A stretch of 64,000 nt of DNA from Candidatus Peribacteria bacterium (GCA_018652265.1 JABICL010000034.1:31236-95235); one strand, 5' to 3'. Shown: positions 6,379 to 60,576, counted from the stretch's first letter. The notes: generated from the letters alone by a model not told the origin. Program-made: numbers and translations.

Positions 6379-6474
6379 TGTCATGCTGAGCCACCCTGAG
6401 AGAGCGAGCACTTGAAGCAGAGCGACGAAGTCGCGATGCTTAAGTCTCGCGAGTCGAAGGGTGTGTCGAAGCAC
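6379..6474 (+). repeat. Nested family B palindromic element
   Basis: TGTCATGCTGAGCC[ACCCTGAG...GTCGAAGGGT]GTGTCGAAGCAC; close relative of 60488-60576. Confidence 0.85.
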
Positions 6475-6527
6475 TATTTTTCTTCTTTTAGTTATAAATC
6501 CTGCTACAAATTCGCTAGAATCAAATC

Positions 6528-8294
6528 ATGATCAGAACTAACACCTGCGGCGAGCTTAGAAAAGAAAATGTAAAAGAAGAGGTAACACTTTGTGGTTGGG
6601 TACATCGTAGACGCGACCATGGAGGACTTGTATTTATAGATCTGCGTGATAGATATGGATTCACTCAGATTGTTTTCGATCCTAGTGATTGTCCTAAAGA
6701 TATTTTTGCAATTGCAGAGACAGTAAGACCTGAATGGGTTCTGAAAATAACCGGAGAAGTTCGCAAAAGAACAGAAGGAGCTGTGCGAGAAGATTGTCCT
6801 ACTGGAGATATAGAAATAGTAGTTTCTGCTATAGAAGTATTCAATGAATCCAAAACTCCTCCATTCGAAATAGATCAGGAAAAAGATGTAGGAGAAGAAA
6901 CTCGATTGGAACATAGATATCTAGATCTTCGTCGTGGGCGTATGTTTACAAACATAAAACGCAGAGGTGAAATCGTGAAACGAATAAGAGATTATTTTCA
7001 TAAAAATGATTTCATAGATGTTGAGACTCCTATTCTTATAAAAGGAACCCCAGAAGGTTCTCGCGAATATCTAGTTCCTTCTCGTCTACACAATGGCAAA
7101 TTCTATGTGTTGCCGCAGAGTCCACAGCAGCTTAAGCAGCTTTTGATGGTTGCAGGATTCGATAAATACTTTCAGGTGGCTAGATGTTTTCGTGACGAAG
7201 ATCAGCGTGGAGACAGACAGCCGGAATTTACTCAGTTCGAACTGGAAATGAGTTTCATAGATCAAAATGATGTTATAGATGTTACAGAAGGTTGTTTTGT
7301 AGAAGTTACAGAAGCAGTAAGGCCAGATAAAAAGATTCAAAAAATGCCTTTCCCAAGGCTGACATACAAAGAGGCGATGGAAAAATATGGTTCAGATAAA
7401 CCAGATCTAAGGTTTGAGTTGCCACTTACGTTAGTGACAGAGGTTGTGCGCGGATGTGGATTCAAGGCATTTGCTTCTCCTATAGAAGATGGAGGTATAG
7501 CTGCAGCATTGCGCGTGCCTGGAGGGGCAGAGTTAACACGTAAAGAAATAGATGAACTAACAGATCTTGCAAAAAGACATGGAGCAAAGGGGCTTGCATA
7601 TATCGTAGTGAAAGATGATGGTCTCCAGTCTCCAATTGTAAAACATTTAGGAGATGACATTGCACAACAACTCGTAAAAGAAGTAGAGGCTCAAGTAGGC
7701 GACATTATTTTCTTTGGTGTAGATGAATATACGACAGCGCTTACCCCTCTTGGAGAAGTTCGTAAGGCATGTGCAAGAAGATTTAATTTGATAGATGAGT
7801 CTGTTTGGAGCTATTGCTGGGTTACAGATTTTCCTATGTTCGAGAAAAGTAAAGAAACAGGAGCAATTGGAGCAGTTCATCATCCATTTACTCGTCCATG
7901 TTCTGAAGATGTCGACATTTTGGAATCAGATCCTCTGAATGCCAGGTCTGTTGCATATGATATTGTGTTGGATGGCGTAGAAGTTGGGGGTGGTTCTATG
8001 AGAATTCATGAGCATGATTTGCAGAAAAAGATTTTTGATCTTCTTGGTATTTCGGAAAAAGATGCTGAACGACGTTTCGGTCACATGTTGAAAGCTTTTG
8101 AGTATGGAGCTCCTCCACATGGTGGAATTGCTATGGGATTAGATCGTTTTGTTATGCTTTTATGTGATGAGCCAAACATTCGTGAGGTAATAGCTTTTCC
8201 AAAAGATCAAAGAGCAAAAGATCTCATGTTAGGAGCGCCTTCTGAAATGCCTGATACACAAATTGCTGAATTGGGTATAAAGATTGTGGAATAA
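6528..8294 (+). CDS. aspS: Aspartate--tRNA ligase
   Basis: RTNTCGEL, GWVHRRRDHGG, LPQSPQQLKQLLM, FRDED, GAPPHGGIAMGLDR. Confidence 0.97.
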   Translation: MIRTNTCGELRKENVKEEVTLCGWVHRRRDHGGLVFIDLRDRYGFTQIVFDPSDCPKDIFAIAETVRPEWVLKITGEVRKRTEGAVREDCPTGDIEIVVSAIEVFNESKTPPFEIDQEKDVGEETRLEHRYLDLRRGRMFTNIKRRGEIVKRIRDYFHKNDFIDVETPILIKGTPEGSREYLVPSRLHNGKFYVLPQSPQQLKQLLMVAGFDKYFQVARCFRDEDQRGDRQPEFTQFELEMSFIDQNDVIDVTEGCFVEVTEAVRPDKKIQKMPFPRLTYKEAMEKYGSDKPDLRFELPLTLVTEVVRGCGFKAFASPIEDGGIAAALRVPGGAELTRKEIDELTDLAKRHGAKGLAYIVVKDDGLQSPIVKHLGDDIAQQLVKEVEAQVGDIIFFGVDEYTTALTPLGEVRKACARRFNLIDESVWSYCWVTDFPMFEKSKETGAIGAVHHPFTRPCSEDVDILESDPLNARSVAYDIVLDGVEVGGGSMRIHEHDLQKKIFDLLGISEKDAERRFGHMLKAFEYGAPPHGGIAMGLDRFVMLLCDEPNIREVIAFPKDQRAKDLMLGAPSEMPDTQIAELGIKIVE

Positions 8295-8301
8295 AAAATC
8301 A

Positions 8302-8354
8302 CCCACCTGTCCCTACAAAGAAGAACAGGCGGGCTTGCCTACTGTTAGGTAGGC
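8302..8354. terminator. Two small hairpins between convergent genes (terminator-like or repeat remnants)
   Basis: CCCACCTGT...ACAGGCGGG and GCCTAC...GTAGGC. Confidence 0.4.
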
Positions 8355-8375
8355 TTAGTTACACTCCTTGGCTAC

Positions 8376-8648
8376 TTAATCTGAGACAGAGGCTTGCCCT
8401 GCCTCAAATAAGTGAACTAAGAGGCTGTCGATCGAATGACCGGCAAGGATATCTCCTCCTACTTCCTGTATCCTTCGAATTGCTGCAAACAGCTCTTCGA
8501 GAGGTTCGGGTAAGTTGAGAGGGATTTCTCTTAGAACGCTACCACCCCCGTCAATGAGGGCTTCCACTTCTGTGTGATGGCTCACAACATCATGGAATGG
8601 AGTTCCACCGTCTTCTCCAGGTTGAACCTGGACGATACGGTACGTCAT
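8376..8648 (-). CDS. Hypothetical protein
   Basis: 90-aa ORF with a GGAGGT SD before ATG 8648, atypical for this genome. Confidence 0.6.
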   Translation of the reverse strand: MTYRIVQVQPGEDGGTPFHDVVSHHTEVEALIDGGGSVLREIPLNLPEPLEELFAAIRRIQEVGGDILAGHSIDSLLVHLFEAGQASVSD

Positions 8649-8771
8649 GTCACACCTCCGTGCTGACAAGAAACGAACGATCGCTCAGCAACATCGCATG
8701 AGCGAGTAACTATTTTTAAATTACCATGTAAAGTTTATATAACAAGGGTTTTCTGTACATATTTTGGCTTG

Positions 8772-8927
8772 CCAGCCGAAGTCGCAGCGATTTTATGCTT
8801 CATAAAATGCATCCTGCAAAATATTACGGATGATAATCTACGCTGCGCGTAGGCTGGTGCCCAGGGAGAGACTCCCTTCGTCTCGCTCACTTCGTTCACT
8901 CGCTCAGGATAAACTTCTCGTCTCTCC
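8772..8927. repeat. Duplicated tRNA-Leu 3' end (8855-8874) flanked by two structured elements
   Basis: TGGTGCCCAGGGAGAGACTC identical to 8975-8994; family B unit ATCCTGAGCG...CGAAGG on - strand; CCAGCC-GAA...GTA-GGCTGG stem at 8772-8857. Confidence 0.75.
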
Positions 8928-8974
8928 ACACTTTAAATCCGTCAAATGCATATAAGATGCATTTGTCGAATCTA

Positions 8975-9061
8975 TGGTGCCCAGGGAGAGACTCGAACTC
9001 TCACAGGATTGCTCCTACTAGCTCCTAAGGCTAGCGCGTCTACCAATTCCGCCACCTGGGC
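8975..9061 (-). tRNA. tRNA-Leu (anticodon TAG)
   Basis: GCCCAGGTGGCGGAATTGGTAGACGCG-CTAGC-CTTAGGA-GCTAG, long variable arm, GTTCGAGT, encoded CCA. Confidence 0.95.
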
Positions 9062-9137
9062 ACGAGCCACATTTTAGCAGTAATTTATAGGAAATAACTA
9101 TTTTGATGATATTTATTTCGTATCATCGCTACTCTGA

Positions 9138-9473
9138 TCAATTGAGCACTAGAGAGCCAGAAGGGCTTTCTAGTATCTTTTTTAAGTTAACTTTTTCTTT
9201 AGATGAAGTTCGTGAAACAAAATCAGATGGACTTAGTGGTTTAATTGTCACAACTCTTGCTTTCCCTCTCCTCATTACTATGTGATCGTCTTTTTTTAGC
9301 ACTGCACCCTTAGGAAAAGCACTTTTTGATAATGGCATTTCTATTGGCATGCCCATAACGAAAAAAACTGCAAATATTACTTCTCCAGAAATTCCTATAA
9401 TTTTCCCCTCAAGTCTTCGGTTGAATATTGCCCGTAGCATCTCTTCTTTTCCAAGGTCGGGGTAGTCTTCCAT
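9138..9473 (-). CDS. Hypothetical protein
   Basis: ORF filling the gap; no recognisable motif; start uncertain (9473 or 9512). Confidence 0.5.
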   Translation of the reverse strand: MEDYPDLGKEEMLRAIFNRRLEGKIIGISGEVIFAVFFVMGMPIEMPLSKSAFPKGAVLKKDDHIVMRRGKARVVTIKPLSPSDFVSRTSSKEKVNLKKILESPSGSLVLN

Positions 9474-9544
9474 TCCCAAATGATTCCAGATTAAGTAGCT
9501 TAAGACAAACAAAAATAAGCGAAAATTCGTGCTAAAATCCGATT

Positions 9545-10132
9545 ATGAATAAGTTCATAAAAAACAATCTATCTCTGATACTTGCATTCTCTTTGCCAGT
9601 AGCACTAATACTAGTTGTAGTTTTTACTACATATTCCCCATTTACTTCGGTAGAAACCAATTACAATTTTATGTATACAGCATGTGACAATGGAACTGGA
9701 GGATATTCGTATGGATGCCTAAATCATATGGAGGCATTATTTTCTGTAAAAGACACTTCTCTCATAAAAAATGATCTAGATGATTCTAGAGATACAGATA
9801 AAGATGGAATTTCTGACATAGATGAAAATTATCATGTAAGAATTTTCCTGCATGACACCCAACAAAATGAAAGCAGAGAAGTTAAATTTGAAAATGCAAA
9901 AGACTACGAAATAATTACAGATACTATTACATCCCCAGATGGAGTAAATGTTTCAGGTGGCTACGAAAGAGGACCAGAGGTATTTCCTATTATAGATACT
10001 CATTCTTCGTATGATTATTACCTTACGAAAGGTAAGAGTAAAACAAGGCTTAACCTTATAAATCGCGATAACAGATACTACTATAGAGATAACTTCCGAT
10101 TTATAGGATGGGTATCATCTAAAATCAATTAA
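9545..10132 (+). CDS. Hypothetical protein with N-terminal membrane anchor
   Basis: Hydrophobic N-terminus; extended -10 TGcTAAAAT 6 nt upstream. Confidence 0.75.
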   Translation: MNKFIKNNLSLILAFSLPVALILVVVFTTYSPFTSVETNYNFMYTACDNGTGGYSYGCLNHMEALFSVKDTSLIKNDLDDSRDTDKDGISDIDENYHVRIFLHDTQQNESREVKFENAKDYEIITDTITSPDGVNVSGGYERGPEVFPIIDTHSSYDYYLTKGKSKTRLNLINRDNRYYYRDNFRFIGWVSSKIN

Positions 10133-10143
10133 CCCCTTATATC

Positions 10144-11100: not shown

Positions 11101-11102
11101 TA

Positions 11103-11191
11103 TGTCATGCTGAGCCGTACTGAGCGAGTAGAACTGGAGGCAGAACGAAGTGAAGCCTCAGTTCTAGGAGACGAAGTACGTGTCGAAGCAT
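11103..11191 (+). repeat. Nested family B palindromic element
   Basis: TGTCATGCTGAGCC[GTACTGAG...CGAAGTAC]GTGTCGAAGCAT. Confidence 0.85.
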
Positions 11192-11289
11192 AGATATTTT
11201 GCTAGAGATTGGTTGTATAAGTTATAAATAAGTTGTACAAATATAGTTAGTCTCAGATTTCACGTTGTTCCTTACACAAGGGGATAGAA

Positions 11290-11568
11290 ATGGCTAATTC
11301 GATTGCTGCCTTTGTTTCTGCTCTGGGCATATGTGTGTTTTCGAGCATTTTGATGTTTCTGACATGGGGTTTCATGAAACATGTTCAGGAGACCATCGAT
11401 GCCTTGTCTGCACAGGAAGATAACTTGCTTACTCCTGAGCACAGAAGCAAGTTAGTACGCTCGTTTCAAGTTTTGTATTTGAGGATGAATTATTGCTGTG
11501 GAGGGGCAGCTATAACCGCAATGGGATGCGCGCTAGTTGCCATCGTGGTTGCGTGTTACATTTTCTGA
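11290..11568 (+). CDS. Small two-helix membrane protein
   Basis: Two hydrophobic segments, purine-rich leader, followed by a terminator. Confidence 0.55.
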   Translation: MANSIAAFVSALGICVFSSILMFLTWGFMKHVQETIDALSAQEDNLLTPEHRSKLVRSFQVLYLRMNYCCGGAAITAMGCALVAIVVACYIF

Positions 11569-11597
11569 GATCTCTCCAGCGTTGTTGGAGAAAATCA

Positions 11598-11621
11598 GCC
11601 CCCACTTAACGGTGGGGGTTT
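11598..11621 (+). terminator. Intrinsic terminator
   Basis: GCCCCCAC-TTAACG-GTGGGGGT followed by a T-rich tract. Confidence 0.6.
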
Positions 11622-11689
11622 GACTTATATTTATTTTTTCTAAAAAAGAGATTCTTATGGCCTTGGATAAGAAGTATTTGAAGAGGTAG

Positions 11690-14323: not shown

Positions 14324-14395
14324 CGGCTTCGCGTTTAGGAATAGACCTATTCATTTGTCATATCACTTATTTTGACCAGCGATCCCGCTACGCCG
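14324..14395 (-). repeat. Stem closed by GTA/GAA internal loop (CGGC-GTA-GCG...CGC-GAA-GCCG)
   Basis: Same motif as 8772, 42224 and 58340. Confidence 0.5.
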
Positions 14396-19268: not shown

Positions 19269-19349
19269 TAATGAATAATTAAAAATGAATAATGAATAAT
19301 TATGGACTATTTCCTTTATTGTACATTTTTCATTGTACATTTTTCATTT
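19269..19349 (-). repeat. 81-bp cassette: 5 heptamers + 11-bp core + 5 inverted heptamers
   Basis: On - strand: aaatgaa aaatgta caatgaa aaatgta caataaa GGAAATAGTCC ataatta ttcatta ttcattt ttaatta ttcatta. Confidence 0.85.
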
Positions 19350-20545
19350 GTCGTCTTAATAACATTTATATATTGATTTACCATCCTCTCAACAGAAAAT
19401 CTTTCTCTAGCACTTTTTTCTCCATTTCTAGACAGTTTCTCCAAAACTTCTTCTTTCTGAATTTCTGTAATTGCAGCTTTAATTTTATTACTACTTCCTG
19501 CAGGAACAATAATTGAATCCTCCGAGGAGATATGCCTAGAGATTCCACATGCATCTGTACATATAGTAGGAATTCCTCGCATCATTGCTTCGGCAATCAC
19601 TAGTCCAAAAGGATCATTTTCTCTGCTTGGCAAAACCAGACAATCTATCCGATTATAAAATTCTTCTATATTGGGAATTGATTCCACAAGCTCAATTTTT
19701 TGCTGCCCACTTGTTTGTTTTTGTATATTGCAGCGAGAACAGGCTTTTATAAGCTTATTTCTCTCAGGTCCATTTCCAACTATCTCTAGCTCCACATTCG
19801 AAAGATCTTTTATGGCTTCTATAAGCAGATCTACTCCTTTGTCGTAAGTTAAGCGAGAAATACAGCCTATGCGGAAATTTCTAGCTTTCCTAGGGTGAAC
19901 ATTGTTGCTCTCCTCGACCGAGTCCGCCGAGGCGGACGAGTGGAGAGGCGCCTCTCGATTCAGCTCCTTGCTAGGAGCTTCACTCGAGGAAAGCCTTGTT
20001 TCCACTCCATTAGGAATAGAAATCACATCCTCCTCTCTCCACCCCATATCCAAATAAATATCTCTGCTCAGGTCAGATACCGTAACTGTAGTTGCTAGCC
20101 TGCTTAGTTTGCGAAGACGCGGAAGCCATGGATTCCACTTAAGCCATCTTCCTACTTTATCATGTTCGACCCAGATTACTTTTATGTTGTTTTGAATGCA
20201 CCACTCTGTGAGTAGAAGTTTTTCGCTTAGGCTCAACATGAAAACCGTGCTCAGTGTTCCGCGTTCCGCGTTCAGTGCTTCTATAAGCTTTTTCTTCATA
20301 CCTTTCTTCCGCCATAAGAAACTAATTGCATTCCACTTAGTAACTGGCGGGGGATCAATATTCAATTCTTTCATGCGGTCCGCGGTCCGCGGTCCGCGGA
20401 CCGCTCGTAATAGTGTTTTACAATCTCCCAAAAACTCAACTTCATAACCTCTCTCTCCCAGTCCTTTCATTAAACTCAGCGTCTGCACCTCCGCCCCGCC
20501 GAAACGAGATTCAAGTGGAAATCTGGTAAATAGGACTTTCTTCAC
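19316..20545 (-). CDS. Glycosyltransferase family 4 with three in-frame repeat insertions
   Basis: GGAEVQ, IPNGV, SRLTYDKG, DPFGLVIAEAM. Confidence 0.9.
   Translation of the reverse strand: MKKVLFTRFPLESRFGGAEVQTLSLMKGLGERGYEVEFLGDCKTLLRAVRGPRTADRMKELNIDPPPVTKWNAISFLWRKKGMKKKLIEALNAERGTLSTVFMLSLSEKLLLTEWCIQNNIKVIWVEHDKVGRWLKWNPWLPRLRKLSRLATTVTVSDLSRDIYLDMGWREEDVISIPNGVETRLSSSEAPSKELNREAPLHSSASADSVEESNNVHPRKARNFRIGCISRLTYDKGVDLLIEAIKDLSNVELEIVGNGPERNKLIKACSRCNIQKQTSGQQKIELVESIPNIEEFYNRIDCLVLPSRENDPFGLVIAEAMMRGIPTICTDACGISRHISSEDSIIVPAGSSNKIKAAITEIQKEEVLEKLSRNGEKSARERFSVERMVNQYINVIKTTNEKCTMKNVQ
19884..19994 (-). repeat. In-frame palindromic element (family A), 111 bp
   Basis: GCTTTCCT...AGGAAAGC termini; encodes LSSSEAPSKELNREAPLHSSASADSVEESNNVHPRKA. 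Confidence 0.9.
20247..20280. repeat. In-frame degenerate heptamer run
   Basis: gtgctca gtgttcc gcgttcc gcgttca gtgctt; peptide LNAERGTLS. Confidence 0.65.
20375..20404. repeat. In-frame heptamer run (GCGGTCC)n
   Basis: Encodes AVRGPRTADR; same unit as 38841-38870. Confidence 0.85.
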
Positions 20546-30608: not shown

Positions 30609-31808
30609 ATGAAAACCATTCTACTCATCTCCCCCTATTGGAAAGAGCCGCATCGTTGGATGGTAAGTTCTGTAAAACTTGCAGAGCTTTGGCAAAGAAT
30701 GGGATATAAAGTAGTTGTTGTATGTATGGGGGCGAAAACAGAGAAAGAAGTAGTCTCGGAAACTCTCACTATTTATAGGGTGTGGGATTTCTTTTTGCCA
30801 GACCCTTTAAACTATGGAATATCTCCAGGATTTTTCTTTAAAGTTTTAAGGGTTTTAAAAAACGAAAAGCCAGACATCGTAATTGTAAATAAGATTCTTT
30901 TCTGGACTTCTTTGATTGTTCCTTGGCTTAGAATTCTTGGAAAAAAGCCAATCGTTACTACGGATGCACTTGTAGGAGTTACCTGGCAGCCTAGAGGAAT
31001 AATTCCAAAAGTCATTATGTCTATTGGAGGATGGACGGCTGGATGGAAAGTAATGCTTTTTGCCAAAAAATTAGTATTTTTTCATCCGCAGCCGGATAAG
31101 ATTTTGAAAATGATGGGGGTTTATGGAAAATCAATTGTGATTCCTACGGGGATAGATAGTCGAGCTTTCCTTAACAAGCTCTCCTCGAGTGAGTCCGCCA
31201 GCGGGCGGACGAATCGAGAGGCGCCTCTCCACTCGTCCGCTAAAGCGGACTCGGTCGAGGAGAGTTACAATATTCATGCGAGGAAAGCTCAAACCGTGAC
31301 TTATGTTGGACGATTAGAATCTGTAAAAGGTGTAGATGATTTTCTCGCAGCGACAGTGCCTCTAAAAAAAGATTATCCAGATCTAAATATTCAAGTTGTT
31401 GGATATTGTAAGCCAGGGAATACGATCGTAAGGCAATATGAAGGTAGCGTGAAATTCACAGGATTGCGTGATGATATTCCAGAGATTCTAAGTAGCTCAG
31501 ATATATTCGTCTTACCAAGTTATAGTGAAGGCCTTAGTAATGCTCTCATGGAAGCTATGTCTTCTAGGTGTGCATGTATTGCTACCGGTGTAGGCGGTAA
31601 TAAATATTTAATAGAAGACTCAGTATCTGGATTACTATTTAAGCCAGGGGATATCGAGGCTCTTAGATCTCATGTAAGAAGCCTGATAGACAATCCTTCA
31701 AGGATAGAGGGATTAGGAAATGCAGCCAGGGCCCGCATAGAGGATATGTTTGACTGGAGCGTAATCGAGAGTAAATATGCTGAACTTTTTAACGAGCGGG
31801 CCAATTAA
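30609..31808 (+). CDS. Glycosyltransferase family 4 with in-frame palindromic insertion
   Basis: IPTGID, YVGRLESVKG, SEGLSNALMEAM. Confidence 0.9.
   Translation: MKTILLISPYWKEPHRWMVSSVKLAELWQRMGYKVVVVCMGAKTEKEVVSETLTIYRVWDFFLPDPLNYGISPGFFFKVLRVLKNEKPDIVIVNKILFWTSLIVPWLRILGKKPIVTTDALVGVTWQPRGIIPKVIMSIGGWTAGWKVMLFAKKLVFFHPQPDKILKMMGVYGKSIVIPTGIDSRAFLNKLSSSESASGRTNREAPLHSSAKADSVEESYNIHARKAQTVTYVGRLESVKGVDDFLAATVPLKKDYPDLNIQVVGYCKPGNTIVRQYEGSVKFTGLRDDIPEILSSSDIFVLPSYSEGLSNALMEAMSSRCACIATGVGGNKYLIEDSVSGLLFKPGDIEALRSHVRSLIDNPSRIEGLGNAARARIEDMFDWSVIESKYAELFNERAN
31162..31290 (+). repeat. In-frame palindromic element (family A), 129 bp
   Basis: GAGCTTTCCT...AGGAAAGCTC termini; encodes AFLNKLSSSESASGRTNREAPLHSSAKADSVEESYNIHARKA. 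Confidence 0.9.
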
Positions 31809-35015: not shown

Positions 35016-35122
35016 TAGGTGGGAGCCAAGTCGCTCTCCTCGAGTGAGTTGTGCTGCCTCTCGACGTCCGCCTGTGGCGGACGCTCGAGGAAAGCACAAC
35101 GAATCGAGAGGTGTCGAAGCAT
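35016..35122 (+). repeat. Intergenic compound A-in-B element (5'-truncated relative of 42210)
   Basis: TAGGTGGGAGCC-AAGTC-GCTCTCCTCGAGTGAGTTGTGCTGCCTCTCGA...GAATCGAGAG-GTGTCGAAGCAT. Confidence 0.85.
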
Positions 35123-42209: not shown

Positions 42210-42386
42210 TGTCATGCTGCCTGCCCGCCGAAGTCCGCCGCGGCGGACGTAGGCGGGAGCCAAATAGCTTTCCTCGAGTGAGTTGTGCTGCCTCTCGACT
42301 TTCGCCTGCGGCGAAAGCTTCCTCCTTCGCTAAAGCTACGGACGACAGGCGAGGAAAGCACAACGAATCGAGAGGTGTCGAAGCAT
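42210..42386 (+). repeat. Multiply nested compound palindromic element
   Basis: Family B ends split by a CCTG-hairpin (42220-42257); contains a family A element that is itself interrupted by a second CCTG-hairpin (42320-42349). Confidence 0.9.
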
Positions 42387-42394
42387 TATTTGCA

Positions 42395-45147: not shown

Positions 45148-46268
45148 GGATTTGTTCCATAGTTTCTGCTCGGCCAAATTTTGTGAAGCTCGCAGGCGTG
45201 GTGCATGCATTCAAGTGTCATGCTGAGGAGGAGCGAAGCGACGTCTCGAAGCATAAACACTTCATAATCCACACAGGCCAACACTCAGATCCTTTGTTTT
45301 CTGACATCTTCTTCAAGGAACTTGATATTCCAGATCCAGATTATAATTTGGGCGTAAAGAGTGCAGGAAATAATGAAGAAACTATCAAAGCAACTTCCGA
45401 AGCTTGCGTCGATGCTCTGAAAGATGCAAATCCTGATGTTGTTTTGGTTTACGGAGATGTATCTGGAGCACTTGGTGGCGCACTTGCTGCAAAAGAAATT
45501 GGAATTCCAGTTGCTCACGTCGAAGCAGGGCTTCGGTCAGGTGATATGGATATGCCAGAAGAAAGAAATAGAATAGAAATAGATAAAATTGCTAAATATT
45601 TATTTGTTACTGAAGAATCAGGACGAAAGAATTTAGAAAAAGAGGGGATAGAGGGAGAGGTTCATTTTGTGGGCAATACGATGATAGATACTTTGATTCG
45701 GATGCAGAAAAATGTGTTTGATTTCAAAAGACCATTTGATTATCCAGATAAATTTGGATTGGTAACTTTGCATCGTCCAAGTAATGTTGATTCAAAAGAT
45801 AATCTGAAGAAAAACATAGATTTTCTAAACGAAGTTGCAGAAAAAAAAGAATTGATATTCCCAATCCACTTAAGAACCAAGTCTGCACTAGAAAATTATA
45901 ATCTATATTCAAAATTATCTGACAAAATAATAAAAAAAGACCCGCTAGGGTACATAGATTTTCTAAAATTAATACATTTATCAGATTTTGTACTTACAGA
46001 TTCGGGAGGCATTCAAGAAGAAACCACTTTTTTGGGAGTTGAATGTTTTACTCTTAGGAAAAACACTGAGCGCCCAGCTACAGAGAGTAAAAATGGTGGG
46101 ACAAATCATTTGATAGATATAGATAAAAAGGAGGGCAAGGATTTAGTACTAGAATTTGCTGAGGAAAATATAAATTACAACGAAAGATCTATGAGACTAA
46201 TGGATGGGAAAGGCCCTGAAAACTGGGACGGAAAAGCGGGAGAAAAAATCATAAAAATTCTAACTTAA
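45144..46268 (+). CDS. wecB: UDP-N-acetylglucosamine 2-epimerase (non-hydrolysing; WbpI-like)
   Basis: ARPNFVK, HTGQH, HVEAGLRS, MPEERNR, TDSGGIQEE, TERP. Confidence 0.9.
   Translation: MRICSIVSARPNFVKLAGVVHAFKCHAEEERSDVSKHKHFIIHTGQHSDPLFSDIFFKELDIPDPDYNLGVKSAGNNEETIKATSEACVDALKDANPDVVLVYGDVSGALGGALAAKEIGIPVAHVEAGLRSGDMDMPEERNRIEIDKIAKYLFVTEESGRKNLEKEGIEGEVHFVGNTMIDTLIRMQKNVFDFKRPFDYPDKFGLVTLHRPSNVDSKDNLKKNIDFLNEVAEKKELIFPIHLRTKSALENYNLYSKLSDKIIKKDPLGYIDFLKLIHLSDFVLTDSGGIQEETTFLGVECFTLRKNTERPATESKNGGTNHLIDIDKKEGKDLVLEFAEENINYNERSMRLMDGKGPENWDGKAGEKIIKILT
45215..45254 (+). repeat. In-frame family B element
   Basis: GTGTCATGCTGAGGAGGAGCGAAGCGACGTCTCGAAGCAT encodes CHAEEERSDVSKH; 2 mismatches to the intergenic copy 574-535. 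Confidence 0.92.
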
Positions 46269-50184: not shown

Positions 50185-51435
50185 TCAAGTTTGAAAAAAC
50201 TTTAAATAATTTTCTATCTGTTTTTCTAGAGAAAACTTTTCTTCAATGAGTTTTCTGCCTGCCTTTCCCATTTCTATTGCTCTATTTCGATCAGAAAGTA
50301 GGTAGTCTAATTTTTTTGCAAATGTTTTAGTATCAAATGGATCTACGATAAATCCGGTTTGCTCATCTAGAATCAATTCTTTCGATCCTCCATAGTGAGT
50401 TGCAATTACTGGCTTTCCAAGTGCCATAGCTTCTAGATTTACAGTAGGAAAAGAGTCAAAGCATATAGATGGGGTAACACATATGTCACAATTAGATATT
50501 GCTTCTATGAATTCTTTTCTCCTGAGCTTTCCTGTGAATTTTATTTTGTCTACCAAATCTTCTGAATGTCTATATTTATTTGTAAGAGCTTCTGCTTTTG
50601 ATTTATCTCCTGCAATTACAATTGATGCCTCTGGATGAGAGCTTTTGATGAGTCTAAAAGCATCAAGTAGCTGATATAAGCCTTTGTCTCGGTTCATTCG
50701 ACCTCCGAAGAAGATAGTTTGTTTATCTGAGGCTTTCCTCGAGTGAGGCTCTTCGCAAAGAGCTGAATCGAGAGGCGCCTCTCCACTCGTCCGCCTGAGG
50801 ACGGACTCGGTCGAGGAGGGCAGATCTATGCCATTGTAAATTACATCATCAATTTCTATGCCATTTGCTTCCAATGCATCTTTTAGCGCATGGCTTACTG
50901 CTATTTTTACATCTACTTTCTTAAGAATGCGTTTTATAAAGAAGTTTCTTAGTGGATTCCAAAGTATTCCAGCTTGTTTTATGTGATCTATGAAACTTAG
51001 TTTGTAATTGAAGTTTTTTAGATATTTATCCGTTGCAAGTCTTCCATAAGAAAAGCTCATTACGTCATGAAATGTGATTACAACTTTTTTTGCATGCTTC
51101 TTTGCAATTTTCAGTGAATTATATGTAAGAAGCTGATGCACATTATGTGCATGGACAATGTCATATGATCCATTTTCCTTGAAAAACTTTTTTATAAGCT
51201 TAGAAGCTTTAGGATTCCAAATACTTAAGTAAGCTCTCCATCTCGAATCATAAGATATTGGTATATATGAGATTTTGTATGGACTACTAATCGCTAATCG
51301 CTTACCGCTAATCGCTGTCAAAACATCTACCTCATGTCCCTGCTCAACATACCCTTCAGCAAGTTGAGATGCTATTTGCCCTGCTCCTCCATCACAATTT
51401 GGAGGGAAATCATCATTTAGAATTAAAATTTTCAT
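50185..51435 (-). CDS. Glycosyltransferase family 4 with two in-frame insertions
   Basis: GGAG, HAHN, IYNGID, GGRMNRDKG, DSFPTVNLEAM. Confidence 0.9.
   Translation of the reverse strand: MKILILNDDFPPNCDGGAGQIASQLAEGYVEQGHEVDVLTAISGKRLAISSPYKISYIPISYDSRWRAYLSIWNPKASKLIKKFFKENGSYDIVHAHNVHQLLTYNSLKIAKKHAKKVVITFHDVMSFSYGRLATDKYLKNFNYKLSFIDHIKQAGILWNPLRNFFIKRILKKVDVKIAVSHALKDALEANGIEIDDVIYNGIDLPSSTESVLRRTSGEAPLDSALCEEPHSRKASDKQTIFFGGRMNRDKGLYQLLDAFRLIKSSHPEASIVIAGDKSKAEALTNKYRHSEDLVDKIKFTGKLRRKEFIEAISNCDICVTPSICFDSFPTVNLEAMALGKPVIATHYGGSKELILDEQTGFIVDPFDTKTFAKKLDYLLSDRNRAIEMGKAGRKLIEEKFSLEKQIENYLKFFQT
50732..50821 (+). repeat. In-frame family A element, opposite orientation relative to the host gene compared with the other GT4 copies
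   Basis: GCTTTCCTCGAGTGAGGCTCTTCGCAAAGAGCTGAATCGAGAGGCGCCTCTCCACTCGTCCG...GGTCGAGGAGGGC; read as PSSTESVLRRTSGEAPLDSALCEEPHSRKA. Confidence 0.9.
51287..51316. repeat. In-frame (CTAATCG)n run
   Basis: ctaatcg ctaatcg cttaccg ctaatcg; encodes AISGKRLAIS. Confidence 0.8.
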
Positions 51436-56426: not shown

Positions 56427-56427
56427 T

Positions 56428-58332
56428 ATGACAAATAATGATACGTACATACTTGGCCTCTCCTGTTATTACCATGATAGTGGTGTTGTACTACTTAAAA
56501 ATGGAGTAATAGTTGCAGCTGCTCAAGAAGAGAGGTTTACCAGAAAAAAACATGATGATGGATTTCCATCCGAAGCAATTTATTATTGCTTAGAAGAGGC
56601 TGGAATTTCAAAAGCTGAACTTAACTATGTGATTTTTTATGATAAGCCCCTTTCGAAGTTTGAAAGGATTTTGATGACTACTATAGATGCTTGGCCAAGG
56701 GGATATAGGCAAATGCTTCAGTCTCTATCACTTTGGCTTAGTAAGAAGCTATGGATGAAACAGCAAATTGCGAAAGAATTAGATTTTGATGGAGAAATAT
56801 TATTCTCGGAGCATCATATGTCTCATGCAGCCTCTACATTCTTTAGTTCAGCATTTTCCGATTCTGCAGTTGTAACTCTAGATGGAGTAGGAGAGTGGGA
56901 AACTACTGGAATAGGATATGGTTCTACTTCGCAAGCTATGCAGAATGCCTCGAATTTATGTTTAACACATGTTATTCATTTCCCTCATTCTCTAGGACTT
57001 TTGTATTCAGCGGTTACTGGATATCTGGGATTCAAGGTAAATAGTGCAGAGTACAAAGTAATGGGACTAGCTCCATATGGAGTAGTAGATGGGAACCCAG
57101 AGAAGTATATGCCAGCTATGCGTAAGCTTATAGATATAAAAGAAGATGGAAGCTATAAGCTGAATATGAAATATTTTGCATATGAATATGGTCTAAGGAT
57201 GACAAATAGACATTTTCATAAGCTTTTTGGGGGTCCACCTAGAAAAGCAGAGTCAGATCTTGAGCAAAAGCACAAAGATATAGCGGCAGCATTACAAATG
57301 ATTACAGAAGAAGCTGTTATGAAGATAGTTCGATATGCTTACAAGCTGCATCCAAGTGAAAATCTATGTCTTTCCGGAGGAGTCGCACTAAATTGTGTAG
57401 CTAATGGAAAAGTTCTCCGAGAAGGACCATTCAAAAATATATTTATACAACCAGCTTCTGGGGATGCAGGCGGAGCACTAGGTGCTGTTCAGTATCTTTG
57501 GCATGCAGTACTGGGTAATCCGAAGACGCAGGAGACTTGTATGAAGAATGTTTACTTTGGACCGGAGTTTGAAGATCAAGAGATTGAAAAGTATTTACTA
57601 CAGTATTCTAGGCAAACAAGCTTTCCTCGAGCGAGTTGTGCTGCCTCTCGACATTCGCCTTCGGCGAATGCTCGAGGAAAGCACAACGAGTTGAGAGGCA
57701 ATGAACTTAAATGGAGAAAATTTGGTAGCAATGAGGAATTAACCGAGGAAGTTTCCTCTCTAATAGATGGAGAAAATGTAATTGGATGGTTCCAAGGTCG
57801 AATGGAATTTGGTCCACGGGCACTTGGCAATAGATCGATAATTGCAGATGCAAGGAGAAAGGAAAATTGGCAGAAAGTGAATCTAAAAATTAAGTTCAGA
57901 GAATCTTTTAGACCTTTTGCACCTTCTGTTCTAGAAGAGCGTGCGTCTGATTGGTTTGAATTAGATGTTCCAAGTCCTTATATGTTACTTGTCGCAGATG
58001 TAAAAGAAGAGAAGCGTGCAGAAATACCTGCGATAACACATGTAGATGGATCTGCTCGAATACAAACTGTAAATAGAGAAGAGAATTCTGTTTACTATGA
58101 CCTCATAAAGAAATTCTACGAGAAGACAGGATGTCCTGTAGTTATAAATACGTCGTTTAATGTTCGTGGAGAGCCTATAGTCTGTTCTCCTAAGGATGCA
58201 TTGTATTGCTTCTTAAATACAGAGATGGATTATTTGGTTATGGGATCTTATGTTCTTGCGAAGAAAGACAATGTGCATCTAATAGATTCTTCTCTTAGAG
58301 ATAAGTATCTTGATGCATTCGATCTAGATTAG
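56428..58332 (+). CDS. Carbamoyltransferase (NodU/CmcH/SxtI family) with two in-frame insertions
   Basis: YYHDS, AAAQEERF, EHHMSHAAS, EYKVMGLAPYG, GRMEFGPRALGNRS, RESFRPFAP, NTSFN. Confidence 0.95.
   Translation: MTNNDTYILGLSCYYHDSGVVLLKNGVIVAAAQEERFTRKKHDDGFPSEAIYYCLEEAGISKAELNYVIFYDKPLSKFERILMTTIDAWPRGYRQMLQSLSLWLSKKLWMKQQIAKELDFDGEILFSEHHMSHAASTFFSSAFSDSAVVTLDGVGEWETTGIGYGSTSQAMQNASNLCLTHVIHFPHSLGLLYSAVTGYLGFKVNSAEYKVMGLAPYGVVDGNPEKYMPAMRKLIDIKEDGSYKLNMKYFAYEYGLRMTNRHFHKLFGGPPRKAESDLEQKHKDIAAALQMITEEAVMKIVRYAYKLHPSENLCLSGGVALNCVANGKVLREGPFKNIFIQPASGDAGGALGAVQYLWHAVLGNPKTQETCMKNVYFGPEFEDQEIEKYLLQYSRQTSFPRASCAASRHSPSANARGKHNELRGNELKWRKFGSNEELTEEVSSLIDGENVIGWFQGRMEFGPRALGNRSIIADARRKENWQKVNLKIKFRESFRPFAPSVLEERASDWFELDVPSPYMLLVADVKEEKRAEIPAITHVDGSARIQTVNREENSVYYDLIKKFYEKTGCPVVINTSFNVRGEPIVCSPKDALYCFLNTEMDYLVMGSYVLAKKDNVHLIDSSLRDKYLDAFDLD
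56922..56945 (-). repeat. In-frame 24-bp GTA/GAA-type mini hairpin
   Basis: - strand TTCTGC-ATA-GCTTGC-GAA-GTAGAA; resembles 42320-42349. Confidence 0.5.
57620..57699 (+). repeat. In-frame family A (nested subtype) element
   Basis: Closely similar to intergenic copies at 35033 and 42267; encodes SFPRASCAASRHSPSANARGKHNELRG. Confidence 0.92.
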
Positions 58333-58339
58333 TGAAATC

Positions 58340-58375
58340 GCGGCGTAGTTCTGAGCTTGCCGAAGAACGAAGCCG
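58340..58375 (+). repeat. Family B core nested in a GTA/GAA stem
   Basis: CGGC-GTA-GTTCT-GAGCTTGCCGA-AGAAC-GAA-GCCG. Confidence 0.75.
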
Positions 58376-58437
58376 GATGAATTGGATTGATTATTTTGCA
58401 GTTATAGGTGTGCATATTGTATTTATATTTGTACTAT

Positions 58438-60246
58438 ATGATTATGAGCTTGTGTGACAACTGGAAAAAATTCATTTATTCATTCTATTCGAATTATAAA
58501 AGATTTTTTATAGAAAATAAGTTGATTGCGACTCTAATTAGTCTTGCAGCTTTTAAGGGGGTGTTTGATTTGGGTAGATTAATTTATTTTTACATAATTC
58601 ATAAGCCAATAAACTGGGATACTCTAATTTATCTCACAATTGGTCGTGGGATTCTAAACGGAATAAAGCCTTATTCAGGATTGTATGAAATGAAGCCGCC
58701 AGGTATTTTTTTGATTTCTGCACTAAGTTTGCGTGTAACAGGAAATGAAACTTTTGGGATTTATATGCAAATTGCGTTTCAGGTATTAATACCACTTCTT
58801 ATTTCTTGGGCAGCTTGGAAAATTACTATAAAAAAACCTTCATCATTTCGTATTTTTTCTGTGATGTCTGGAATGGTATTTGGACTGATTGTTTCTCTGT
58901 ATGCAGAATCACGACACATAGCATTTCAATCTGAAGGATTTGGATTCTTCTTTGCTTTACTATACGTAATTTCAATTGCATTTATAGGAAGAATGACAAT
59001 TCTACGCACAGTTATAGCATCTGTTGGAATTCTTGGATGTATAGGTATGAAAGAGCCATTTTTTCTATCAGTGATTGCGGTTGCATTGATTTTGCAAGAT
59101 GAAGATGAATCTTTTTTTAAGAACATTCTTTATAGATTAGTATTTCCATTTTTAATAGCTGCCGTATCGGGGATTATTATTATGGCTTTACTGGGATATT
59201 TAGATGGATATTTAGGAATTCATCTTCCTTTCATTTTTGAATCACGTGTATCAAATGGATTGCCATTACCACTTCGGGGTCTTTCTATTGGTTATGTGCT
59301 TATGGATTTATTTATTACACCAATGTTCCTTTTTGGATTGCCGGTTGGATTATTCATCCTTATTACACTTGTAGGATCCAAAATCCCAGTGACATATATT
59401 AAACGGCTTATTGTTTCTTTTTTTGGATGCATTATTTTTTCTACAGTTCTTTGGTTTGTTATTAGAAATCATCAATTAGTGGGACGTCTGGAATGGAACA
59501 ATATAAATATTGTGTATATGACACTAAGAAAAATTTTATTAGTAGGAGAAGCATGGACAGCTTGGAAAATCATTCTTGTGGGACTATTGATATTAGCTTC
59601 GATTAAGTCATTTCTTGCTATACCAAGAAAACATTTCACGCAAACATTGATAATAATTTTTGCTCTTTATCTAGTATCACTTGCAGCTGCAGCTGGAAAT
59701 TTTTTTGGATCTCATATGATTTTTGCATTGCCGCTCTATTGTGCATTCTTTTTTATGTTTTTGCATAGAATTAATAAATATACAAATCCGCGATTTTTAC
59801 AAAACATCTGTGCAATATTATTGTTTATGGCTGCTATTTTTACATATCAAAAAAATCATCAATATATTTTGCAGCAAGAAATTCAATATAATGAAAAATC
59901 AAATACAGAATTAACCGAAGCATTTGATAGCATCATGGAGAGCTGTGATATAAAAAGATATTTTATTGTGGGTGATGGAGCATTTTTAACATCACACTCA
60001 AAATATTCGCCGATTGGGCCTATACCATTTCATTTACCATTTATGAGTGACTCGCACTCTCTTCTTGTAGATTACTACAAAAGAGGATTGGCATATGCTC
60101 AATTTGCTATTTTAATGCCTGAAGGTCGTAATATTCATGTTCTTGCAAAACTCTTGGAAGAAAGCAATTTTACAAGATCTATTCCTAAGTGTGCAAAACC
60201 TAATAGATTGCCAGAGAATTATGTATTATATTTCCGTGATTTGTAA
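58438..60246 (+). CDS. Polytopic membrane protein, GT-C-like
   Basis: WDTLIY...PYSGLYEMKPPGIF loop motif; many TM helices; start uncertain. Confidence 0.65.
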   Translation: MIMSLCDNWKKFIYSFYSNYKRFFIENKLIATLISLAAFKGVFDLGRLIYFYIIHKPINWDTLIYLTIGRGILNGIKPYSGLYEMKPPGIFLISALSLRVTGNETFGIYMQIAFQVLIPLLISWAAWKITIKKPSSFRIFSVMSGMVFGLIVSLYAESRHIAFQSEGFGFFFALLYVISIAFIGRMTILRTVIASVGILGCIGMKEPFFLSVIAVALILQDEDESFFKNILYRLVFPFLIAAVSGIIIMALLGYLDGYLGIHLPFIFESRVSNGLPLPLRGLSIGYVLMDLFITPMFLFGLPVGLFILITLVGSKIPVTYIKRLIVSFFGCIIFSTVLWFVIRNHQLVGRLEWNNINIVYMTLRKILLVGEAWTAWKIILVGLLILASIKSFLAIPRKHFTQTLIIIFALYLVSLAAAAGNFFGSHMIFALPLYCAFFFMFLHRINKYTNPRFLQNICAILLFMAAIFTYQKNHQYILQQEIQYNEKSNTELTEAFDSIMESCDIKRYFIVGDGAFLTSHSKYSPIGPIPFHLPFMSDSHSLLVDYYKRGLAYAQFAILMPEGRNIHVLAKLLEESNFTRSIPKCAKPNRLPENYVLYFRDL

Positions 60247-60310
60247 TCCTATTTTTGATATTAGATATTTGTTTTATTCCAATGATTGATTCTGATACAG
60301 TTCATGACAT

Positions 60311-60478
60311 ATGAAAAAACACAGCAAACTTTCAATCTTTAGCGATATATGGGCGTTTCTATGCGTTAGGAAAAAATGGTGGCTGGCACCTATTCTTATA
60401 GTTCTAGTACTGTTTGGATTCTTGCTTGTATTTGCAGAGACATCTGCGCTTGCACCGTTTATTTATACATTGTTTTAA
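60311..60478 (+). CDS. DUF5989/SxtK-family small protein (not in ORF track)
   Basis: MKKHSKLSIFSDIWAFLCVRKKWWLAPILIVLVLFGFLLVFAETSALAPFIYTLF. Confidence 0.9.
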   Translation: MKKHSKLSIFSDIWAFLCVRKKWWLAPILIVLVLFGFLLVFAETSALAPFIYTLF

Positions 60479-60487
60479 AATAAATAA

Positions 60488-60576
60488 TGTCATGCTGAGC
60501 CATTCTGAGAGAGTGAGCACTTGAAGCGGAGCTTGCGACGCTTAAGTCTCACGAGACGAAGAATGTGTCGAAGCAC
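60488..60576 (+). repeat. Nested family B element overlapping the GT2 C-terminus
   Basis: TGTCATGCTGAGCC[ATTCTGAG...CGAAGAAT]GTGTCGAAGCAC. Confidence 0.88.

What the first reader, a model, noticed from the sequence alone, without database searches (positions are those of the whole stretch)
6379..60576. Strand-specific non-canonical motifs conserved while stems covary
The B core is always stem-GA-G...C-GA-stem with exchangeable stems: TCCT/AGGA (491), TGCT/AGCA, ACCCT/AGGGT (6393), GTACT/AGTAC (11117), GTTCT/AGAAC (58348), ATTCT/AGAAT (60502). This implies tandem sheared G-A pairs. A second motif, a GTA/GAA internal loop resembling a loop E submotif, closes unrelated stems at 8772-8857, 14324-14395, 42224-42257, 42320-42349, 56922-56945 (ATA variant) and 58340-58375. 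Several loops are GNA triloops, including GCGAAGC, known as an exceptionally stable ssDNA mini-hairpin. Selection appears to act on a folded single strand of one polarity, as expected for a protein-recognition structure.
Basis: partly seen in the sequence, partly recalled or inferred. Interest (0 to 1): 0.7.

Follow-up and report, generated by a model that had tools for sequence, protein, structure and literature searches.

The report
Strand-specific G·A hairpin repeats, nuclease-linked
Small non-coding repeats scattered through this tiny uncultured bacterium's genome are built so that only one DNA strand folds into a long hairpin held partly by unusual G-A pairs, and they most likely serve as recognition sites for small single-strand DNA nucleases encoded in the same genome.

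Summary
A ~90-nt intergenic repeat ("type A", 38 copies in this 1.07-Mb genome, 3 in the window) folds as one hairpin. It has four nested tandem G·A steps, an invariant bulged G and mostly GNA loops, while 13 of 30 Watson-Crick pairs covary. A second family ("C", 53 copies) uses the same stem-GA-G...C-GA-stem core, and its only non-Watson-Crick cells are G·T, G·A and 3 A·C. The top strand is the better folder in 35 of 35 copies.

Orientation follows neither transcription nor replication. No Rfam family matches and no RAYT gene is present. Every type A copy starts with ATGTC followed by a stem that begins AT. This is the signature of CGTC/TGTC-tagged REPs, the repeats bound as single-stranded DNA by Ssn-type GIY-YIG nucleases (Chenal 2025). 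The genome has seven such small GIY-YIG genes, five with G·A hairpins beside them, and relatives show the same adjacency.

My reading is a new, multi-layered G·A variant of Ssn-related hairpin repeats that acts as ssDNA. Binding and cleavage are untested, and the published SRM pattern does not match. This scan has reported GIY-YIG hairpin elements on other genomes before.

The parts
6378..6474 (+). Type A element. ATGTC tag, then a 4-layer hairpin: P1 TGCT/AGCA, P2 ACCCT/AGGGT, a CGAG/CGAG block, P3 with a bulged G, and apex GCGAC-GAA-GTCGC.
11102..11191 (+). Type A element (P2 GTACT/AGTAC), 3 nt after the stop of ORF 10144-11100.
60487..60576 (+). Type A element (P2 ATTCT/AGAAT). Its 3' end overlaps the end of the convergent ORF 60542-61252.
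486..529 (+). Short TGTCAT-tagged B-core hairpin (TCCT-GA-G...C-GA-AGGA). It is the left half of a dimer with the tags on the outside.
535..573 (-). Short TGTCAT-tagged B-core hairpin on the minus strand. It is the right half of the same dimer, between convergent genes.
45217..45254 (+). Short GTCAT-tagged B-core hairpin with a GCGAAGC apex.
58341..58375 (+). Hairpin CGGC-GTA-GTTCT-GAG-CTTGC-CGA-AGAAC-GAA-GCCG. A B core sits nested inside a G-N-A/G-N'-A 3x3 loop.
42224..42257 (+). Hairpin CCCGCC-GAA-GTCCGCC...GGCGGAC-GTA-GGCGGG (3x3 loop).
8772..8857 (+). Long hairpin closed by GCC-GAA-G...C-GTA-GGC. It abuts a 19-nt copy of the tRNA-Leu 3' end.
14324..14395 (-). Hairpin CGGC-GTA-GCG...CGC-GAA-GCCG. 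The G·A strand is the minus strand, in a divergent intergenic region.
35038..35111 (+). Family C composite: a CCTC-GA-G...C-GA-GAGG shell with an inverted family C unit nested in its loop.
31183..31221 (+). Family C B-core hairpin lying in frame inside glycosyltransferase ORF 30609-31808.
19951..19989 (-). Family C B-core hairpin lying in frame inside glycosyltransferase ORF 19316-20545.
50737..50775 (+). Family C B-core hairpin inside ORF 50185-51435, antisense to the gene.
57644..57677 (-). Family C B-core hairpin inside the carbamoyltransferase ORF, between its two Pfam domains.

Best explanation
These are dispersed REP/MITE-like hairpin repeats of the CGTC/TGTC-tagged kind (the 'Ssn-related motifs'), in an elaborated form. 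Several families share one building rule: stem, tandem G·A, G-C pair, inner hairpin, C, tandem G·A, stem.

Proposed mechanism, all steps inferred:
1. When the DNA is single-stranded, the top strand snaps into a long hairpin. It is held by Watson-Crick stems, tandem G·A pairs in pyrimidine-GA-purine context, G·T wobbles and GNA or CTTG caps.
2. The complementary strand would carry C·T mismatches and A·C in the same places, so it folds less well. This gives the element a polarity.
3. A small single-domain GIY-YIG nuclease of the Ssn type (seven genes in this genome) recognises the unpaired 5' tag (A)TGTC together with the hairpin base, and cuts the single strand nearby.
4. The result is either spread of the repeats or processing of single-stranded DNA.

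Shown here: the fold by covariation, the polarity, the tag, the absence of any orientation rule, the lineage-specific copy number, nesting and chimeras, and adjacency of GIY-YIG genes to such hairpins. Inferred by analogy with N. meningitidis SsnA: ssDNA as the active form, binding and cleavage.
For: 1. Fold and polarity. See the observation check. The top strand is more stable than the bottom in 35 of 35 copies under both RNA and DNA parameters. Family C has 52 simple copies with 37 distinct inner stems. Their first 7 inner positions hold 303 Watson-Crick, 14 G·T, 3 A·C, 44 G·A/A·G and 0 other cells.

2. Tag. All 36 type A copies examined have AT before GTCAT, and the stem starts AT. Di Nocera 2013 (PMC3733652, section 6 read) says of CGTC REPs that the tag is often TGTC and that stems almost invariably start with AT. 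The NTS repeat of Chenal 2025 is CGTCAT plus a hairpin, bound and cut only as ssDNA of that strand, not as dsDNA, RNA or the reverse strand.

3. Not an RNA terminator and not tied to replication.
- Type A between co-directional genes: 12 sense, 8 antisense. Family C: 10 sense, 11 antisense.
- The folded strand lies on the G-rich replichore side in 24 of 38 type A and 23 of 53 family C copies.
- No Rfam match at gathering score in the window, nor at E<=1 for 7 copies.

4. Mobile-like behaviour.
- The full type A was found in none of 40 related genomes. Only 45-55-nt versions were found, in 3 of them.
- TGTCATNNTGAG counts range from 0 to 140 in 31 family genomes, against 0-3 for the reversed-pattern control.
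- Chimeras and nested copies occur.
- There is no target duplication.

5. Partner.
- No Y1/RAYT gene is present.
- Seven 79-93-aa GIY-YIG ORFs are present. By eye, 5 of 7 have G·A hairpins within 150 nt. One (C38) is flanked on both sides in inverted orientation, which is the NTS-ssnA-NTS layout. An automatic test gives 3 of 7 against 9.4% of all ORFs (p=0.02).
- In relatives, 8 of 29 best GIY-YIG loci have a B core within about 300 nt, at 0.63 per kb against 0.16 per kb elsewhere in those loci.
- The only two tags in G013 lie within 225 nt of a GIY-YIG gene. The G019 gene has two tags on each side. G006, G022 and G014 also show adjacency.

6. Chemistry.
- DNA CGAG blocks form stable hairpins with sheared G·A pairs by NMR (PMC10085684, passages read).
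- d(GCGAAGC) melts at 76.5 C, whereas r(GCGAAAGC) melts at 39 C (PMC13037366, passages read).
Against: - The published SRM search pattern has 0 matches in this genome, against 0-5 in shuffles.
- None of the seven GIY-YIG genes is flanked by a type A element or by an exact TGTCAT tag. The nearest is GAATGAC-CCTGAG upstream of two of them.
- Across 31 family genomes the number of GIY-YIG matches does not correlate with the number of TGTCATNNTGAG tags (Spearman 0.12, p=0.51).
- Only 2 of 80 pan-bacterial loci have a GIY-YIG ORF within 400 nt.
- The closest solved relatives of the proteins are UPF0213 proteins (E 6e-27). Membership of the Ssn clade proper (CDD cd10448) could not be tested.
- With DNA nearest-neighbour parameters the top strand is favoured by only 0.5-2.2 kcal/mol in the five window elements folded, and z-scores are modest at -0.9 to -3.9. 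The asymmetry therefore rests mainly on known G·A chemistry.
- G·A pairs and G·U wobbles are equally at home in RNA.
- If ssDNA exposed at the replication fork were the active form, a replication-strand bias might be expected. None is seen.
Confidence: 0.55

Rival explanations
1. The hairpins are selfish or neutral repeats that spread by some route unrelated to the GIY-YIG genes, such as another enzyme or template switching at hairpins. The G·A steps then mainly weaken the bottom-strand hairpin, so that long palindromes avoid cruciform formation and cleavage.
For: There is no count correlation between GIY-YIG genes and tags. No type A copy lies beside a GIY-YIG gene in this genome. Nested and chimeric copies fit replication or recombination errors at hairpins as well as they fit enzyme action.
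Against: The adjacency of tagged B-core hairpins to GIY-YIG genes recurs in at least six other genomes of the family and in 2 of 80 pan-bacterial loci. The invariant unpaired 5' ATGTC (36 of 36) is hard to explain without a sequence-reading protein. No RAYT gene was found, and other candidate transposase families were not searched for.
Confidence: 0.22
2. The elements act as RNA: 3'-end hairpins, mRNA stabilisers or protein-binding sites in transcripts, as proposed for many REPs. Tandem G·A and GUA/GAA loops would then be RNA motifs.
For: - G·U wobbles and tandem G·A pairs are classic RNA features.
- The predicted RNA folds are strong and asymmetric (-36.4 against -28.0 kcal/mol).
- Type A is enriched between convergent genes: 11 of 36 intergenic copies, against 94 of 574 spacers genome-wide.
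- Four upstream ORFs end at the element's own TGA.
- The central pair of the 3x3 loop is T-A or A-T in all the convincing cases (my reading), as in loop-E-like motifs.
Against: - 8 of 20 type A and 11 of 21 family C copies between co-directional genes are antisense.
- Hairpins next to tRNA genes have their G·A strand antisense to the tRNA.
- There is no consistent T-run after the hairpin.
- No Rfam family matches.
- The full element is absent from all 40 relatives searched, which is unlike a conserved host RNA.
- GNA triloop mini-hairpins are far more stable as DNA than as RNA (PMC13037366, passages read).
Confidence: 0.15
3. The elements are binding sites for a dimeric double-stranded-DNA-binding protein, or chance palindromes.
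For: The overall inverted-repeat symmetry.
Against: Symmetric dsDNA recognition does not predict G·A on one strand only, G·T outnumbering A·C (47 to 17) or an asymmetric bulged G. Chance is excluded by the shuffles and slid controls.
Confidence: 0.03

Closest known systems
Ssn nucleases and their Ssn-related motifs (NTS/SRM), Chenal et al. 2025, PMC11893778
   Same: - Strand-oriented hairpin repeats with a conserved unpaired 5' tag (CGTCAT there, TGTCAT here), present in tens to hundreds of copies and mostly intergenic.
- Small single-domain GIY-YIG genes flanked by such hairpins.
- Polarity matters: SsnA cuts only one strand, and only as ssDNA.
   Different: - The hairpin here is up to about 90 nt with four tandem G·A steps, a bulged G and nested modules, instead of a 20-50-nt near-perfect palindrome.
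- The published SRM pattern finds nothing here.
- The host is a candidate-phylum (Peregrinibacteria) genome. That group is not mentioned in the paper's supplements (13 of 14 files searched).
- Some copies lie in frame in genes.
- Activity is untested.
CGTC/TGTC-tagged REP superfamily, Di Nocera, De Gregorio and Rocco 2013, PMC3733652
   Same: - A terminal TGTC tag, and stems starting with A-T pairs.
- G·T pairs are tolerated.
- Dimers with the tags outside occur (window 486-573).
- There is a preference for convergent and co-directional spacers.
   Different: The described families have 8-9-bp stems and 4-5-nt loops. The layered G·A architecture and copies inside ORFs are not part of that description, judging from section 6 and the passages I read.
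REP/REPIN elements with RAYT (TnpA-REP), and IS200/IS605 subterminal hairpins
   Same: Imperfect hairpins read as single-stranded DNA by a small nuclease. There is no target duplication and a fixed short sequence sits on the 5' side. Non-autonomous copies far outnumber the enzyme genes.
   Different: The tag is not GTAG, and no Y1/HUH transposase gene is present. No lagging-strand orientation bias is seen.
DNA 'CGAG block' and GNA mini-hairpin motifs (PMC10085684, PMC13037366)
   Same: The same local chemistry: pyrimidine-GA-purine tetranucleotides paired in tandem (TGAG/CGAA and CGAG/CGAG), and GCGAAGC-type caps.
   Different: Those are structural studies of oligonucleotides, a human promoter and phage origins, not genome-wide bacterial repeat families.
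Rickettsia palindromic elements (RPE)
   Same: Hairpin repeats that also sit in frame inside protein-coding genes. Di Nocera 2013 equates RPE-4 and RPE-6 with CGTC families (section 6 read).
   Different: Different sequence and host. That RPEs lie in frame in genes is recalled from the literature, not read here.

Membership tests
Ssn / SRM system (Chenal 2025) | Single-domain GIY-YIG protein of about 90-100 aa, CDD family cd10448 | tested here: inconclusive
   There are seven ORFs of 79-93 aa with PF01541 at 50-66 bits. NCBIfam gave nothing above cut-off. The best PDB relatives are UPF0213 proteins. CDD is not on hand.
Ssn / SRM system (Chenal 2025) | Repeat with a conserved oriented 5' tag HGTCWY followed by a hairpin | tested here: met
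   ATGTCAT plus a stem in 36 of 36 type A copies. TGTCATNNTGAG occurs 59 times in the genome against 0 for the reversed control.
Ssn / SRM system (Chenal 2025) | Match to the published degenerate SRM pattern | tested here: not met
   0 matches, against 0-5 in ten block shuffles.
Ssn / SRM system (Chenal 2025) | The nuclease gene is flanked by its repeats | tested here: inconclusive
   By eye, 5 of 7 genes have G·A hairpins within 150 nt, and one is flanked on both sides. The automatic test gives 3 of 7 against 9.4%. Several relatives show it. No gene is flanked by type A itself, and there is no count correlation.
Ssn / SRM system (Chenal 2025) | Binding and cleavage of one strand as ssDNA only | not testable with these tools
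   This needs purified protein and oligonucleotides.
CGTC/TGTC-tagged REPs (Di Nocera 2013) | A terminal CGTC or TGTC tag, and A-T pairs at the first two stem positions | tested here: met
CGTC/TGTC-tagged REPs (Di Nocera 2013) | Stem of 8-9 bp and loop of 4-5 nt | tested here: not met
   Type A has 30 pairs in four layers with G·A interruptions.
REP with RAYT | A GTAG tag and a Y1 transposase (PF01797) gene in the genome | tested here: not met
   0 matches in a genome rated 100% complete. The same search rings in 6 of 14 control genomes.
Intrinsic terminator or other known structured RNA | Sense orientation downstream of genes, a U-tract, or a match to an Rfam family | tested here: not met
   Sense to antisense is 12:8 and 10:11. 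No consistent T-run follows the hairpin. There are no Rfam matches.
Loop E / sarcin-ricin submotif | An asymmetric bulged-G motif with fixed non-canonical pairs, in RNA | tested here: inconclusive
   The loop here is a symmetric 3x3 (G-N-A opposite G-N'-A) with N-N' always T-A or A-T in the convincing cases. Geometry cannot be derived from sequence.

The most novel reading that the evidence does not exclude
Tandem G·A blocks in pyrimidine-GA-purine context, capped by GNA mini-hairpins, form a pan-bacterial single-stranded-DNA 'structure code'. Single-domain GIY-YIG nucleases read it and use it to move a new class of minimal mobile elements. These grow by hairpin-in-hairpin insertion, which would explain the four-layer type A element and the nested composites, and they can settle in frame inside genes.
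Probability: 0.3. Interest if true: 0.8.

Novelty: new variant of a known kind. Interest (0 to 1): 0.6.

Why it matters
Ssn nucleases, described in 2025, were presented as the first site-specific ssDNA-only endonucleases. How such an ~90-residue protein reads its hairpin is still open.

These repeats supply a natural mutational series. There are dozens of copies in which the stems vary freely while the tag, the G·A steps and a bulged G stay fixed. This points to the features a protein is likely to read and gives direct oligonucleotide designs for testing.

The same tag plus G·A core recurs in many phyla, so a widespread and so far unremarked DNA structural motif may underlie a whole class of bacterial repeats.

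The elements also explain much of the non-coding DNA, some contig breaks and some in-frame peptide insertions in small candidate-phylum genomes.

Tried and rejected
- Generic scans for any tandem mismatch flanked by short stems were swamped by chance matches in this AT-rich genome. I replaced them with stricter scans against shuffles.
- Rfam: only a tRNA in the window, and nothing at E<=1 on 7 copies.
- Sister-species comparison: the metagenome scan with the neighbouring AspRS found relatives at 63% identity at best. The type A model hit none of the 49 (of 80) loci searched. Empty sites and in-place compensatory change therefore could not be examined.
- Expression: no RNA holder was listed for window 5000-12000.
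- Laying contigs of four DNA runs showed only that assemblies break inside the repeats and that other copies cross-map. No insertion polymorphism could be read.
- Target-site duplication: flank sharing equals the permuted control.
- RAYT as partner: absent.
- NCBIfam gave no family name for the GIY-YIG proteins.
- Literature: full-text searches found no description of these repeats or of G·A steps in REP-like elements. The searches were GCGAAGC with intergenic and repeat, sheared with repetitive extragenic, and the 11-mers GTCATCCTGAG and GTCATGCTGAG with their complements. Subscription journals are not covered.
- PMC156048 (a review of unusual DNA motifs) is not held.

Full report
**What is there**

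The window is G000:C30:31236-95235 of a 1.07-Mb, 48-contig, 38% G+C genome. Earlier notes of this scan call it an uncultured marine Peregrinibacteria; I did not test the name. The gene content is ordinary for a small-genome bacterium.

They belong to repeat families.

The largest I call type A. It reads AT-GTC-ATGCT-GAG-CC-[5-bp stem]-GAG-CGAG-[12-bp stem with a bulged G]-[apex]-...-CGAG-N-CGA-[stem']-GTGT-CGA-AGCAT. It has 35 copies by regex and 38 by covariance model at E<1e-10. Three are in the window (6378-6474, 11102-11191, 60487-60576).

**Is it more than chance**

I aligned 34 copies, leaving out one that has a nested insert. On that alignment a hand-drawn 30-pair structure gives:
- 93.4% of cells paired, against 85.1% in column shuffles (0 of 500 as high) and 29-40% when partners are slid by 1-3 columns.
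- 13 of 30 pairs changed on both sides.
- 109 doubly changed cells against 34 expected.

These cells count sequences, not events. However, the second stem alone shows about a dozen different variants.

Four tandem G·A steps are kept in 34/34, 34/34, 25-26/34 and 30-32/34 copies. At the third step a 107-nt subtype has A-T and G-C instead, which shows that these positions lie inside the helix. The bulged G is invariant. G·T cells number 47 against 17 A·C.

A second family, C (GCTTTCCTC-GAG...C-GA-GAGG, 53 copies), has 37 different inner stems in 52 simple copies. Its non-Watson-Crick cells are only G·T (14), A·C (3) and G·A/A·G (44).

Against block-shuffled genomes, the stem-GA-G...C-GA-stem core is 4.4-fold enriched and the G-N-A/G-N'-A loop 3.9-fold enriched. 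No other mismatch combination is enriched as much.

Among the second-motif sites, 56922-56945 is probably chance and 42320-42349 is weak. 14324-14395 and 42320-42349 have their G·A strand on the minus strand.

**Polarity**

The strand carrying G·A is predicted to fold better than its complement in 35 of 35 type A copies. The means are -36.4 against -28.0 kcal/mol with RNA parameters and -16.7 against -14.0 with DNA parameters.

With DNA parameters the difference in individual window elements is only 0.5-2.2 kcal/mol, and z-scores against shuffles are -0.9 to -3.9. Those parameters treat G·A as a plain mismatch.

NMR work shows that DNA tetranucleotides of the form pyrimidine-GA-purine, paired in tandem ('CGAG block'), make stable hairpins with sheared G·A pairs (PMC10085684, passages read). 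The type A steps are TGAG/CGAA twice, then CGAG/CGAG, then NGAG/CGAN.

GNA caps, including exact GCGAAGC, are the extraordinarily stable DNA mini-hairpin, with a Tm of 76.5 C. The RNA version of the related GCGAAAGC melts at 39 C (PMC13037366, passages read).

**RNA or DNA, and where**

The active form could be RNA or DNA, and orientation gives the main clue. I used crude ORF calls (975 ORFs covering 90% of the genome).
- Type A lies between convergent genes 11 times, between divergent genes 5 times, between co-directional genes 12 times sense and 8 times antisense, and inside (probably spurious) ORFs twice. An earlier tally on 35 copies gave 14 sense and 7 antisense.
- Family C is 10 sense to 11 antisense.

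Third-codon G/C skew splits cleanly into a coding-strand part and a replication part of about ±0.15. The folded strand lies on the G-rich side in 24 of 38 type A copies (p=0.14) and 23 of 53 family C copies.

So neither transcription nor replication sets the orientation. No T-run follows the hairpin consistently. Rfam has no match. No RNA run is available.

A host RNA function at each locus is therefore unlikely, though not excluded.

**Behaviour like mobile DNA**

- The full type A was found in none of 40 genomes of the same family or class, each from a different genus. Three of them hold 45-55-nt versions with the same tag and nested G·A steps.
- The 12-mer TGTCATNNTGAG occurs 59 times in this genome and 0-140 times in 30 family genomes. 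15 of the 31 genomes have 10 or more, and the reversed control gives 0-3.
- Chimeras join a 24-nt mini-unit (GTCAT-CCT-GAG-CTTG-T-CGA-AGG-GC) to type A at the shared CGAAG or CTGAG words.
- The same mini-unit sits in the loop of four family C copies. Six family C composites carry an inverted copy in their loop.
- Type A has no target duplication. It always has AT before the tag (36 of 36).
- Four ORFs end at the element's own TGA.

**The likely partner**

Earlier notes of this scan pointed me to small GIY-YIG genes and to two papers, which I then read.
- Chenal et al. 2025 (PMC11893778; Results part 1 of 4, section 10, Methods section 17, Discussion and one supplement read) show that 94-aa single-domain GIY-YIG proteins (Ssn) bind an oriented hairpin repeat starting CGTCAT. 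They cut just upstream of it, and only as single-stranded DNA of that strand.
- Di Nocera et al. 2013 (PMC3733652, section 6 and passages read) describe the same repeats as CGTC-tagged REPs. The tag is often TGTC, the stems nearly always start with two A-T pairs, and dimers mostly have the tags outside.

Type A fits the tag and the stem start. The pair at window 486-573 is a tags-outside dimer.

In this genome:
- There is no Y1/RAYT gene.
- There are seven GIY-YIG ORFs of 79-93 aa.
- One (C38) has family-C-type hairpins on both sides in inverted orientation.
- Two (C43, C44) are preceded by ATGAC-CCT-GAG...CGA-AGGG.
- One (C48) is preceded by a GAA/GTA-loop hairpin and one (C31) is flanked by such hairpins.
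- Two (C8, C34) show no B core or 3x3 loop.
- An automatic count gives 3 of 7 against 9.4% of all ORFs (p=0.02).

In relatives:
- All 31 family genomes have 1-15 GIY-YIG matches, one of which is probably UvrC.
- 8 of 29 best loci have a B core within about 300 nt, at 0.63 per kb against 0.16 per kb elsewhere in those loci.
- By the coordinates, the only two tags in G013 lie 190-225 nt from a GIY-YIG gene.
- The G019 gene has two tags on each side.
- G006 (three genes), G022 and G014 also show adjacency.

**Evidence against the link**

- The published SRM pattern finds nothing here.
- No GIY-YIG gene is flanked by type A itself.
- GIY-YIG and tag counts do not correlate across the 31 genomes (rho 0.12).
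- The nearest solved structures are UPF0213 proteins, and I could not test membership of the Ssn clade (CDD cd10448).

The partner assignment is therefore an inference of moderate strength.

**Breadth**

My own arithmetic puts chance at roughly 34.

The hits come from Bacteroidota, Ignavibacteria, Acidobacteriota, Alpha-, Beta- and Gammaproteobacteria, Chloroflexota, Planctomycetota, Peribacteria and others. In the 85 matches of the 80 loci held with flanks, the two free stem positions are Watson-Crick in 76.

Longer members, for example from Bradyrhizobium and Afipia, again contain nested CGAG...CGAG layers. Two of the 80 loci have a GIY-YIG ORF within 400 nt.

The G·A core is thus a widespread feature of this repeat superfamily. 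My full-text searches found no description of it.

**Verdict**

The interpretation (a folded single strand of one polarity that a protein reads) is the best reading. It now has a concrete candidate: Ssn-like GIY-YIG nucleases acting on ssDNA.

This is a new, multi-layered variant of a known kind of element. It is not a new kind, and its activity is untested.

Noticed in passing
window 31183-31221, 19951-19989, 50737-50775, 57644-57677: Family C hairpin repeats lie inside four long ORFs without breaking the frame. In two glycosyltransferases they add nearly the same peptide (SSSE...NREAPLHSSA.ADSVEES). In the carbamoyltransferase the repeat sits between the two Pfam domains. This recalls Rickettsia palindromic elements.
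   Followed up: partly
window 8857-8875 and 8977-8995: A 19-nt direct repeat (the 3' end of tRNA-Leu, 8978-9061 minus strand, plus 2 nt) brackets a 101-nt insert. The insert carries a minus-strand B-core hairpin (about 8876-8912). It looks like a small insertion into the tRNA 3' end that rebuilt the tRNA end.
   Followed up: partly
G000:C43:28039-28293 and G000:C48:11026-11274: Two of the seven small GIY-YIG genes lie directly downstream of tRNA genes, with G·A hairpins in between. Several CGGC-GTA...GAA-GCCG hairpins also abut tRNA 3' ends, with their G·A strand antisense to the tRNA.
   Followed up: partly
window 35038-35111, and five more loci (G000:C21:31945, C34:62062, C34:29165, C48:7929, C48:18133): A 74-nt composite in which one family C unit sits inverted in the loop of another is itself repeated six times in the genome.
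   Followed up: partly
whole genome (G000): Third-codon G/C skew separates into a coding-strand part (about +0.145) and a replication part (about ±0.15 per contig). Gene orientation shows no clear bias towards the inferred leading strand (18-90% per contig).
   Followed up: partly
L051 (G014:C6) 1037-1375: A GIY-YIG gene of a related genus has an in-frame TGA and is followed by three TGTCAT-tagged B-core hairpins, two direct and one inverted.
   Followed up: no
window 42266-42355: A cluster of family C-like and small hairpins follows the 42224-42257 hairpin and fills the gap before ORF 42395-43135. Crude ORFs 42152-42445 and 42178-42435 here are probably not genes.
   Followed up: no
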